The notes beneath the pieces were generated by a model. The model ran no database searches. It saw only the letters and a program-made list of their open reading frames with translations, and was not told where the DNA came from. A stretch of 11,317 bases of DNA, from the UHGV virus genome UHGV-0229837. One strand, 5' to 3'. The position numbers and the translations under genes were made by a program. The stretch is from a virus. This document shows, in pieces, positions 10,113 through 10,736 of this stretch. The first letter of the stretch is position 1, and every line of letters starts with the position of its first letter.

Positions 10113-10187
10113 GCTTGGTGTCTATTCGATGGATACTCACATACTACGGTAACATCATGAAAAAATCATAGTTTTTTTTAACTCTGA

Positions 10188-10736
10188 ACCAGCAGTGGTA
10201 GTGCCAGCGATGCCGCATCGTCAGCCAGTTCGGCGGCGTCATCGGCATCATCGGCGTCTGCTTCAAAAGATGAGGCGACCAGACAGGCGTCAGCAGCGAA
10301 GGGCAGCGCCACGACAGCATCCACGAAGGCGACAGAGGCAGCTGGCAGTGCGACGGCGGCAGCACAGAGCAAAAGTACGGCGGAATCCGCGGCAACGCGC
10401 GCCGAGACAGCGGCAAAACGGGCAGAGGATATTGCATCCGCCGTGGCGCTTGAGGATGCGAGCACGACGAAAAAGGGGATAGTACAGCTCAGCAGTGCGA
10501 CCAACAGTACGTCTGAAACGCTGGCGGCAACGCCAAAGGCAGTAAAATCAGCCTATGACAATGCAGAGAAACGTCTGCAGAAAGACCAGAACGGCGCTGA
10601 TATACCCGATATTGGTGCTCATACGCACTCCGTTGCGATTGGTTCACATGGACATACCATCACCGTTAACGCTGCTGGTAACGCGGAAAACACCGTCAAA
10701 AACATCGCATTTAACTATATTGTGAGGCTTGCATAA
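10188..10736 (+). pseudogene. Side tail fibre (Stf) gene remnant: 5'-truncated C-terminal portion
   Basis: Frame open from 10188 (preceded by stops at 10179 and 10185) with no start codon until a GTG at 10443; Ala/Ser/Thr-rich repeats then ...[52 protein letters not shown]..., typical of lambdoid Stf C-termini; stop overlaps the tfa start (TAATG). Confidence 0.75.

What the first reader, a model, noticed from the sequence alone, without database searches (positions are those of the whole stretch)
10114..10736. Deletion junction: cryptic prophage lacking all head, tail and terminase genes; side tail fibre truncated at its 5' end
The lysis cassette and cspI terminator are followed within about 75 nt by the stf reading frame, which opens abruptly without a start codon or N-terminal domain. 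No terminase, portal, capsid or tail genes lie between the lysis genes and the distal tail fibre. This indicates a large internal deletion, so the element cannot form particles on its own.
Basis: partly seen in the sequence, partly recalled or inferred. Interest (0 to 1): 0.4.

Follow-up and report, generated by a model that had tools for sequence, protein, structure and literature searches.

The report
Deletion scars in Qin-type defective prophage
This is an ordinary piece of prophage decay: the right end of a Qin-type defective E. coli prophage, where small deletions have joined the genes after the lysis cassette to a doubly truncated side-tail-fibre gene, with every head, tail and packaging gene gone.

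Summary
After rrrQ-rzpQ-cspI-ymcF-ynfR, a side-tail-fibre (stf) frame opens at 10188 with no usable start codon and no N-terminal domain, and it runs to 10736. An intact tfa gene follows (10736-11317). None of 20 morphogenesis proteins of an intact relative has a match in the window.

- The true junction (J1) is at 10211-10212, inside ynfN. About 56 nt of ynfN is joined to stfR nt 1134-1136, with only a 2-bp TG overlap.
- A second junction (J2) was missed. It lies at 10610-10611 and is an in-frame 1,740-nt deletion of stf codons 512-1091.
- ymcF, ynfR and a frameshifted ynfN stub lie between cspI and the junction.

J2 is older. It is shared by many public Qin remnants that still carry terminase or portal fragments. 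J1 is younger. It is absent from 5,426 complete E. coli genomes and was found in one metagenome scaffold that is identical to the window from 8527 onwards.

So J1 most likely removed only about 2.5-5.7 kb from an already defective prophage. It was probably not a single deletion of about 22 kb. This is well-known cryptic-prophage erosion and is of low interest.

The parts
8284..9311 (+). Context: the end of the lysis cassette, rrrQ lysozyme (8284-8817) and rzpQ, a DUF2514 spanin-like gene (8814-9311), with an embedded Rz1-like lipoprotein ORF (8989-9261).
   Evidence: ORFs. Gene names come from the RefSeq annotation of the matching loci L001 and L003.
9673..9885 (+). cspI, a cold-shock protein paralogue and Qin moron gene, intact at 70 aa.
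   Evidence: ORF. Same position and length as the annotated cspI in L001, L002 and L003.
9896..10084 (+). ymcF/ynfQ small cold-shock gene (62 codons, non-canonical ATT start).
   Evidence: Placed by coordinate transfer from the annotated ymcF/ynfQ in L001, L002 and L003. The sequence was read directly. The gene is called with PF23641 in L011.
10087..10152 (+). ynfR small ORF (21 codons). It contains the terminator-like hairpin and T-run at 10091-10113.
   Evidence: Same offset as the annotated ynfR in L002. Hairpin fold. The palindrome was detected.
10157..10212 (+). ynfN 5' stub of about 56 nt. It is also frameshifted, with an A6 run instead of A7, so ATG 10157 runs into TAG at 10169-71.
   Evidence: Alignment of the window with nine loci. 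tblastn matches YnfN residues 2-19 at 10159-10212. K-12-type homology ends at 10212.
10211..10212 (.). Junction J1. ynfN is joined to stfR nt 1134-1136 (codon 378/379). The 2-bp overlap TG could come from either parent.
   Evidence: Three-way comparison of the window with ynfN (L002, L003) and with intact stfR (L004). BLAST breakpoints. J1 is absent from 5,426 complete E. coli genomes and present in L008.
10213..10611 (+). stf remnant, segment A: codons 379-511 of a 1,132-codon stfR. It is an Ala/Ser-rich shaft with one Phage_fiber_2 repeat.
   Evidence: 100% identical over 10211-10611 to L004 positions 4001-4401 inside the intact stfR gene (2868-6266). Pfam result.
10610..10611 (.). Junction J2. 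An in-frame internal deletion of 1,740 nt (stfR codons 512-1091), with a 2-bp overlap TA.
   Evidence: Comparison of the window with both parental stretches of L004 (coordinates). The two flanks are about 1.2-1.7 kb further apart in intact prophages and in isolated phages. J2 is shared by L008-L016. It is found in 2 of 5,426 complete genomes as one 100% piece.
10612..10736 (+). stf remnant, segment B: the C-terminal 41 codons (1092-1132, with the GAHTHS...GSHGHT His-rich motif) plus the stop codon.
   Evidence: tblastn gives 100% identity to StfR residues 1092-1132. BLAST match to L005 positions 24573 onward at 99.86%.
10443..10736 (+). The only ORF with a start codon in the stf frame (GTG, 97 aa). 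It spans J2. Gene callers annotate it in public assemblies.
   Evidence: The exact protein is on record in 29 blocks of the assembly collection.
10736..11317 (+). tfa (tfaQ type), a tail-fibre assembly chaperone gene, intact at 193 aa. Its ATG overlaps the stf stop (TAATG), and a GAGG lies 8 nt upstream.
   Evidence: Pfam Caudo_TAP, E=6e-43. 100% amino-acid identity to TfaQ of the morphogenesis-complete prophage of KKa014. Sequence read.

Best explanation
Window 10114-10736 is the scarred right end of a Qin-type (ydfJ-locus) defective lambdoid prophage of E. coli.

Two illegitimate, microhomology-level deletions are visible:
- J2 (10610-10611) is the older one. It removed stf codons 512-1091 in frame.
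- J1 (10211-10212) is the younger one. It joined nt ~56 of the moron gene ynfN to stf codon 379.

Against a morphogenesis-complete relative at the same chromosomal site, 21.9 kb is missing at J1: gnsB, terS, terL, portal, protease-capsid, all tail genes, J, lom and the 5' third of stf.

The loss was most likely stepwise. The immediate parent was already a remnant of the L009/L011/L016 type, so J1 itself removed only about 2.5-5.7 kb.

The consequences below are inferred, not shown:
- The stf remnant cannot be a fibre. It has no start codon, no tail-attachment domain, and no Gp34-trimer or Collar domains.
- The element cannot package DNA or build particles.
- It keeps a Q-dependent late operon with apparently intact holin, lysozyme and Rz, the csp-type moron genes, and an intact tfa with its own Shine-Dalgarno sequence.
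For: - Locus identity. The gene order rrrQ-rzpQ-cspI-ymcF-ynfR-ynfN is 99.7-99.9% identical to Qin of K-12-derived and E2 strains.
- J1. Left homology ends at 10212 and right homology (intact stfR, 100%) starts at 10211.
- J2. L004 position 4401 is joined to 6142, a loss of 1,740 nt or 580 codons.
- Missing genes. The intact relative KKa014 carries 21.9 kb of morphogenesis genes between the two J1 flanks. None of its 20 proteins hits the window.
- Order of events. The exact 97-aa ORF that spans J2 occurs in 29 blocks of assemblies. The left stf junctions there are at nt 199, 426, 473 and 1134, behind portal, Nu1 or gpW fragments.
- J1 itself. It occurs in none of 5,426 complete genomes, but it is in L008 together with the A6 indel.
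- Near-identity to remnants. The window is 100% identical to L008 from 8527 to 11317. It differs from MB19, L009 and L011 by 1-2 positions left of J1, and from L009 and L014 by 0 positions right of it.
- Independent deletions at the same locus in E2, XL10-Gold, LD39-1 and MB19 show recurrent erosion.
Against: - The window ends at the tfa stop and starts inside the early region, so its own chromosomal flanks are not seen. The locus assignment rests on relatives.
- The order of J1 and J2 is inferred from distribution and near-identity, not from a rooted phylogeny. Recombination is evident in this mosaic and could in principle have moved J2 between elements.
- A J2-bearing but otherwise intact prophage was not found, but only 10 contexts were inspected.
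- The deletion mechanism (RecA-independent illegitimate recombination or replication slippage) is inferred only from the 2-bp overlaps. By my own calculation, an overlap of at least 2 bp is expected by chance at about 16% of random junctions.
Confidence: 0.88

Rival explanations
1. One-step origin. A single deletion of about 22 kb in a prophage that was otherwise morphogenesis-complete, apart from J2, created J1 and removed all packaging, head and tail genes at once.
For: Against the intact KKa014 prophage the two J1 flanks are 21,903 bp apart. Nothing in the window itself records intermediate steps.
Against: - Every other J2-bearing locus inspected (L009-L016) is already a remnant with its own large deletion.
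- Those remnants are identical or nearly identical to the window on both sides of J1. KKa014 is only 94-95% identical there.
Confidence: 0.1
2. The stf fragment is the variable 3' cassette of an invertible (Pin/Gin/Cin-type) tail-fibre switch. An intact gene would be restored by inversion onto a constant 5' part located elsewhere.
For: - Qin, Rac and e14 relatives carry pin invertase genes next to tfa.
- PinQ inverts the e14 P segment within stf genes (PMC12529663).
Against: - No PinQ homologue is found by tblastn in the window or in L008, which shares both junctions.
- L008 has no inverted repeat longer than 25 nt at 76% complementarity in the 3.7 kb around the genes.
- DNA downstream of tfa in L008 is 99.5% collinear with KKa014 up to host ydfJ.
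- No phage_tail_N-coding sequence occurs anywhere in the window.
- That paper's own BLAST survey found inversions only in e14.
Confidence: 0.01
3. Assembly artefact. J1 or J2 is a chimeric join made by an assembler across repeated tail-fibre sequence.
For: - stf and tfa sequences are multi-copy in E. coli genomes, with a median of 3-4 places per genome.
- The window ends exactly at the tfa stop.
Against: - J1 plus the linked A6 indel is reproduced in an independent ENA metagenome scaffold of 102 kb.
- J2 is present in two complete genomes and many independent assemblies.
Confidence: 0.01

Closest known systems
Qin cryptic prophage of E. coli K-12 (cspI-ynfN ... nohA/stfQ pseudogenes-tfaQ-pinQ)
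   Same: - Same gene set and order from rrrQ to ynfN, at 99.7% identity.
- Same type of tfa.
- Same general state: morphogenesis genes deleted and stf reduced to a pseudogene.
- The relative that shares both junctions sits in the same rspB/ydfJ site.
   Different: - The junctions differ. The K-12-derived locus examined joins ynfO to stf nt ~3252. Here ynfN is joined to stf nt 1134-1136, with an additional internal in-frame deletion.
- gnsB, ydfO, ynfO and nohA are absent here.
- The tfa is the 193-aa KKa014 type and no pinQ is seen. The left arm (1-8827) is of a different lambdoid type.
Morphogenesis-complete Qin-locus prophage of E. coli KKa014 (NZ_CP147105.1) and the intact stfR-tfaQ-pinQ module of RM10042
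   Same: - Window 140-7756 is 98.4% identical to KKa014, and TfaQ is 100% identical.
- stf segment A is 100% identical to RM10042 stfR.
   Different: Those elements retain the 21.9 kb from ynfN to stf, with terS, terL, portal, capsid, tail, J, lom and a full 1,119-1,132-aa Stf.
Other Qin/Rac remnants (E2, MB19, LD39-1, L009-L015)
   Same: They show the same kind of erosion. Short-overlap deletions end inside stf, and tfa is always left intact. MB19 and L009-L015 share J2 exactly.
   Different: Each has its own left junction: ynfR, Nu1, gpW or portal joined to stf nt 199, 426, 473 or ~3066. Only L008 shares J1.
Lambda PaPa stf frameshift (laboratory lambda lacks side tail fibres). This is cited from my own knowledge (Hendrix and Duda 1992) and was not checked here.
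   Same: The side-tail-fibre gene is inactivated while the downstream tfa is kept.
   Different: In lambda PaPa the cause is a single frameshift in an otherwise functional phage. Here there are two deletions in a phage remnant with no virion genes.

Membership tests
Qin-type cryptic lambdoid prophage (E. coli ydfJ/rspB locus) | Characteristic late-region gene order: lysozyme rrrQ, rzpQ (DUF2514), cspI, ymcF/ynfQ, ynfR, ynfN. | tested here: met
   Window 8592-10142 is 99.87% identical to Qin of strain E2. Window 9293-10212 is 99.7% identical to the K-12-derived locus, and the annotated genes sit at the same offsets.
Qin-type cryptic lambdoid prophage (E. coli ydfJ/rspB locus) | Integration between rspB and the truncated ydfJ. 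| tested here: inconclusive
   The window contains neither flank. L008 is 100% identical to the window over 8527-11317 and lies between an rspB fragment and ydfJ.
Qin-type cryptic lambdoid prophage (E. coli ydfJ/rspB locus) | Defective: packaging, head and tail genes missing. | tested here: met
   tblastn of 20 morphogenesis proteins of KKa014 gives no hit in the window. In L008 no such gene lies between the host flanks.
Functional lambdoid side tail fibre (Stf) | N-terminal tail-attachment domain (Pfam PF08400 phage_tail_N) and a start codon. | tested here: not met
   PF08400 covers residues 1-134 of full StfR and is absent from the remnant. The frame is closed at 10185-87 and the first start codon is the GTG at 10443.
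Functional lambdoid side tail fibre (Stf) | Complete shaft and distal domains (Gp34_trimer, Collar). | tested here: not met
   Both domains lie in codons 512-1091, which J2 deleted.
Tail fibre assembly protein Tfa (Pfam PF02413 Caudo_TAP) | Full-length Caudo_TAP protein encoded directly after stf. | tested here: met
   PF02413 at E=6e-43 over residues 72-191. The 193-aa protein is 100% identical to TfaQ of KKa014.
Pin/Gin/Cin invertible tail-fibre segment | Adjacent serine invertase gene and inverted crossover sites flanking stf-3'/tfa cassettes. | tested here: not met
   No PinQ match in the window or in L008. No significant inverted repeats in L008 9000-12700. The window itself ends at the tfa stop, so its own downstream DNA could not be inspected.

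The most novel reading that the evidence does not exclude
The module that survives every independent deletion at this locus is the last ~40-100 codons of stf plus an intact tfa. It may not be mere debris. It could be kept by selection, for example as a small receptor-masking or adsorption-blocking protein with its chaperone, as is claimed for the short chimeric StfE2 of e14 (PMC12529663). Alternatively it could serve as a reservoir for host-range exchange with incoming lambdoid phages.

The evidence does not exclude this. tfa is intact in all 12 remnants inspected. J2 is in frame. The 97-aa ORF is conserved exactly in 29 assembly blocks.

The same facts are equally explained by recency, since the remnant is 100% identical to intact genes. 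Ascertainment also contributes, because the look-up required an exact match to the 97-aa ORF.
Probability: 0.05. Interest if true: 0.5.

Novelty: already known. Interest (0 to 1): 0.1.

Why it matters
It matters little beyond correct annotation. The locus should be labelled as a Qin-type prophage remnant with a ynfN'-'stf fusion scar and a doubly deleted stf pseudogene, not as a tail-fibre gene.

The one mildly useful product is the set of nested junctions: stf nt 199, 426, 473 and 1134 on a shared J2 background. These give ordered, essentially homoplasy-free markers for tracing stepwise prophage erosion and E. coli lineages. They also illustrate that a 'big deletion' seen against an intact phage can be the sum of several small ones.

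Tried and rejected
- Collection scans for the junctions found nothing and did not identify the source organism. The J1 pattern was scanned against genome contigs and metagenome contigs, and the J2 pattern against genome contigs. All gave 0 hits. The genome collection holds one genome per species.
- Looking up the window's DUF968 protein to find the source contig returned only common lambdoid prophages with intact morphogenesis genes, none with J1. It did show that the left arm is a widespread type.
Only 2 bp (TG at J1, TA at J2) are shared by the parental sequences.
- An invertible-segment explanation was rejected.
- An in-frame YnfN-Stf fusion protein was rejected. ynfN is in a different frame from stf and is itself frameshifted by the A6 run.
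- The contiguous 90.5% match in LD39-1 (H48) looked at first like a second occurrence of J2. The alignment showed an independent, different internal deletion in a Rac-type stf.
- Structure prediction and remote-homology searches were not used, because nucleotide-level identity to annotated genes settled the question.

Full report
**What is in the window.**
The ORF map was compared with annotated E. coli genomes. The window is the early-right and late region of a lambdoid prophage. In order it carries:
- a hokD-like gene, a DUF968 gene, rusA and Q;
- two tRNA genes and an iraM-like gene;
- a holin gene, a DUF1327 gene, the lysozyme gene rrrQ (8284-8817) and rzpQ (8814-9311);
- cspI (9673-9885);
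- the small genes ymcF/ynfQ (9896-10084) and ynfR (10087-10152);
- the beginning of ynfN (ATG at 10157);
- a tail-fibre fragment;
- an intact tail-fibre assembly gene (10736-11317, Pfam Caudo_TAP, E=6e-43).

The stretch 8592-10142 is 99.87% identical to the Qin remnant of E. coli E2. The stretch 9293-10212 is 99.7% identical to a K-12-derived Qin locus.

**Checking the observation.**
- In the stf frame, stops lie at 10179-81 and 10185-87. Then 182 codons are open up to the TAA at 10734-36.
- The first possible start codon in that frame is the GTG at 10443.
- A terminator-like hairpin with a T-run lies at 10091-10113 (the palindrome was also seen). The frame therefore does open about 75 nt behind it.
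- A tblastn of 20 morphogenesis proteins of an intact relative finds nothing in the window.

One correction applies: the hairpin lies inside ynfR, about 200 nt after cspI and with ymcF in between, so it is not directly 'the cspI terminator'.

**Mapping the junctions.**
BLAST against the fetched loci and base-by-base comparison with both parental sequences show two junctions.

J1:
- ynfN-type sequence runs to 10212 (...GTGCCAGCGATG).
- stfR sequence starts at 10211 (TGCCGCATCG...). It is 100% identical over 401 nt to positions 4001-4401 of locus L004. These positions lie inside an intact 3,399-nt stfR gene (2868-6266).
- Only the dinucleotide TG is shared by the two parents.
- The first stf-derived codon is 379.
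- The eight codons 10188-10211 that seem to begin the 'stf frame' are ynfN DNA read out of frame. They happen to be Ser/Ala-rich.

J2:
- At 10610-10611, L004 position 4401 is joined to 6142, with overlap TA.
- This removes 1,740 nt, exactly 580 codons (512-1091).
- The remnant therefore consists of StfR residues 379-511 plus 1092-1132 (confirmed by tblastn).
- It has lost the phage_tail_N domain (residues 1-134), the Gp34_trimer-like domain (663-762) and the Collar domain (907-954) of the full protein.
- In isolated phages such as PhiR29_1 the two flanks of J2 are about 1.2 kb further apart.

**What is missing.**
E. coli KKa014 carries a morphogenesis-complete prophage at the ydfJ site. Its left arm is 98.4% identical to window 140-7756 and its TfaQ is 100% identical. 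In it, the two flanks of J1 are 21,903 bp apart. That interval contains:
- the rest of ynfN, gnsB and a hypothetical gene;
- the small and large terminase subunit genes, a gpW-like gene and the portal gene;
- the protease-capsid fusion gene and the head-tail and tail genes Z, U, V, G, T, H, M, L, K and I;
- J, lom and the first 378 codons of stf.

**Order and size of the events.**
The 97-aa ORF from GTG 10443 spans J2. Its exact sequence is on record in 29 blocks of public assemblies. Ten J2-bearing contexts were inspected: the eight places shown, the complete genome MB19 (L016), and the window itself.
- All ten have J2, but their left junctions differ.
- L010, L012, L014 and L015 have a portal fragment joined to stf nt 199.
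- L011 has a complete Nu1 gene joined to stf nt 426.
- L009 has a Nu1 fragment joined to stf nt 473.
- L013 and MB19 have gpW joined to stf nt 199, plus further internal deletions.
- Only L008 shares J1 (nt 1134) with the window.

J1 is found in none of 5,426 complete E. coli genomes. J2 is found as a single 100% piece in two of them.

L008 is a 102-kb ENA metagenome scaffold. It is 100% identical to the window from 8527 to 11317 and shares the A6-for-A7 frameshift in the ynfN stub. This rules out an assembly artefact.

Left of J1 (8527-10212), the window differs from MB19 only by that indel, and from L009 and L011 by two positions each. Right of J1 it is 100% identical to L009 and L014. KKa014 is only 94-95% identical in these stretches.

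The most economical history is therefore:
1. J2 and a first large deletion occurred in an ancestor.
2. Further deletions then ate outward from the existing scar.
3. J1 removed about 2.5 kb (L009-like parent), 3.3 kb (L011-like) or 5.7 kb (L010-like).

J1 was not the event that removed the virion genes. This ordering is an inference from distribution and identity, not from a rooted tree.

**Mechanism.**
Both junctions have 2-bp overlaps and no flanking repeats. This fits RecA-independent illegitimate recombination or replication slippage. However, an overlap of 2 bp or more is expected at about 16% of random joins by my own calculation, (n+1)(1/4)^n(3/4)^2 summed for n>=2. The overlaps therefore prove nothing.

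Independent deletions at the same locus show that this kind of erosion is recurrent:
- E2: ynfR 3' end joined to stf nt ~3066.
- XL10-Gold: ynfO joined to stf nt ~3252.
- LD39-1 (Rac type): stf nt 1482 joined to 3271.
- MB19.

The functional consequences are inferred:
- No fibre can be made from the remnant.
- No DNA packaging or particle assembly is possible from this element alone.
- The holin, lysozyme and Rz/Rz1-like ORFs have full annotated lengths.
- tfa has its own GAGG 8 nt before the ATG, which overlaps the stf stop. Q-dependent late transcription could therefore still express lysis genes and Tfa.

**Rivals.**
No PinQ homologue is present in the window or in L008. There are no meaningful inverted repeats. 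The DNA after tfa in L008 is collinear with KKa014 up to host ydfJ. No tail-fibre N-terminal coding sequence occurs in the window.
- A YnfN-Stf fusion protein is excluded by frame and by the A6 frameshift.
- A single 22-kb deletion remains possible but is less parsimonious.

**Comparison with what is known, and novelty.**
Qin is a textbook cryptic prophage whose morphogenesis genes are deleted and whose stfQ is a pseudogene. Cryptic-prophage erosion and mosaicism are well described (for example PMC3105296, PMC6379469 and PMC3945230, found but not read in detail).

This window is another deletion allele of that element. It is rare: 0 of 5,426 complete genomes, and present in at least one public metagenome scaffold.

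The only reading that would raise interest is that the always-retained stf C-terminus plus tfa module has a host function. That would be comparable to the adsorption-blocking StfE2 reported for e14 (PMC12529663). Nothing here supports that beyond its persistence, which recency and ascertainment also explain.

**Verdict.**
The feature is real and was correctly recognised as a deletion scar in a defective prophage. It was mis-placed by a few tens of bases and is incompletely described: there are two junctions, small genes intervene, and the origin was probably stepwise. It is biologically ordinary. Interest is 0.1.

Noticed in passing
window 8527-8827 (inside lysozyme gene rrrQ, 8284-8817): There is a mosaic crossover here. 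Window 1-8827 is 99.3% identical to a widespread lambdoid prophage left arm that elsewhere continues into an intact Rz-ydfO-Nu1-terminase-portal region. From 8527 onward the window is identical to Qin-type remnants. L008 carries the same J1/J2 right end on a quite different left arm. The scarred right end has therefore been recombined onto at least two left arms. A reciprocal hybrid prophage may exist elsewhere in the source genome.
   Followed up: partly
window 10157-10171: The ynfN stub has an A6 run where nine other loci have A7, so ATG 10157 runs into TAG after four codons. L008 shares the indel, so it is real rather than a homopolymer sequencing error.
   Followed up: yes
last ~130-300 nt of stf in the window (10612-10736), L001 6545-6839, L002 ~7895-8042, L006 4402-4530: Four independent deletions end within the last ~130-300 nt of the 3.4-kb stf gene: the window's J2, E2, XL10-Gold and the Rac-type LD39-1. 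All leave the His-rich C-terminal motif and an intact tfa. This could be selection for tfa expression, a mosaic boundary at ...GGTATTGGTGC, or ascertainment.
   Followed up: partly
window 5116-5191 and 5296-5372: Two tRNA genes lie downstream of the Q antiterminator gene: anticodon CAT, which RefSeq calls tRNA-Ile in the KKa014 homologue, and tRNA-Arg (TCT). This is as in many lambdoid and Stx-type phages.
   Followed up: no
window 1824-1979 (+) and 6284-6619 (-): There is a hokD-type type I toxin ORF (51 aa) and an IraM/PmrD-family anti-adapter-like ORF (111 aa). Both were named by coordinate transfer from the RefSeq annotation of KKa014. Pfam PF11183 and PF01848 are recorded for the homologues. 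My own Pfam scan of the 111-aa ORF found nothing at E<=0.01.
   Followed up: no
window 10144-10504 (- strand) and L009-L015 (245-aa minus-strand gene calls upstream of the 97-aa ORF): Long antisense ORFs lie across the GC- and Ala/Ser-rich stf shaft region. Public gene callers annotate a 245-aa minus-strand 'protein' there with no Pfam hit. This is almost certainly a compositional artefact.
   Followed up: no
window 9896-10152: ymcF/ynfQ appears to start at a non-canonical ATT codon. The terminator-like hairpin (10091-10113) lies inside the 21-codon ynfR ORF, so translation of ynfR and hairpin formation would overlap.
   Followed up: no
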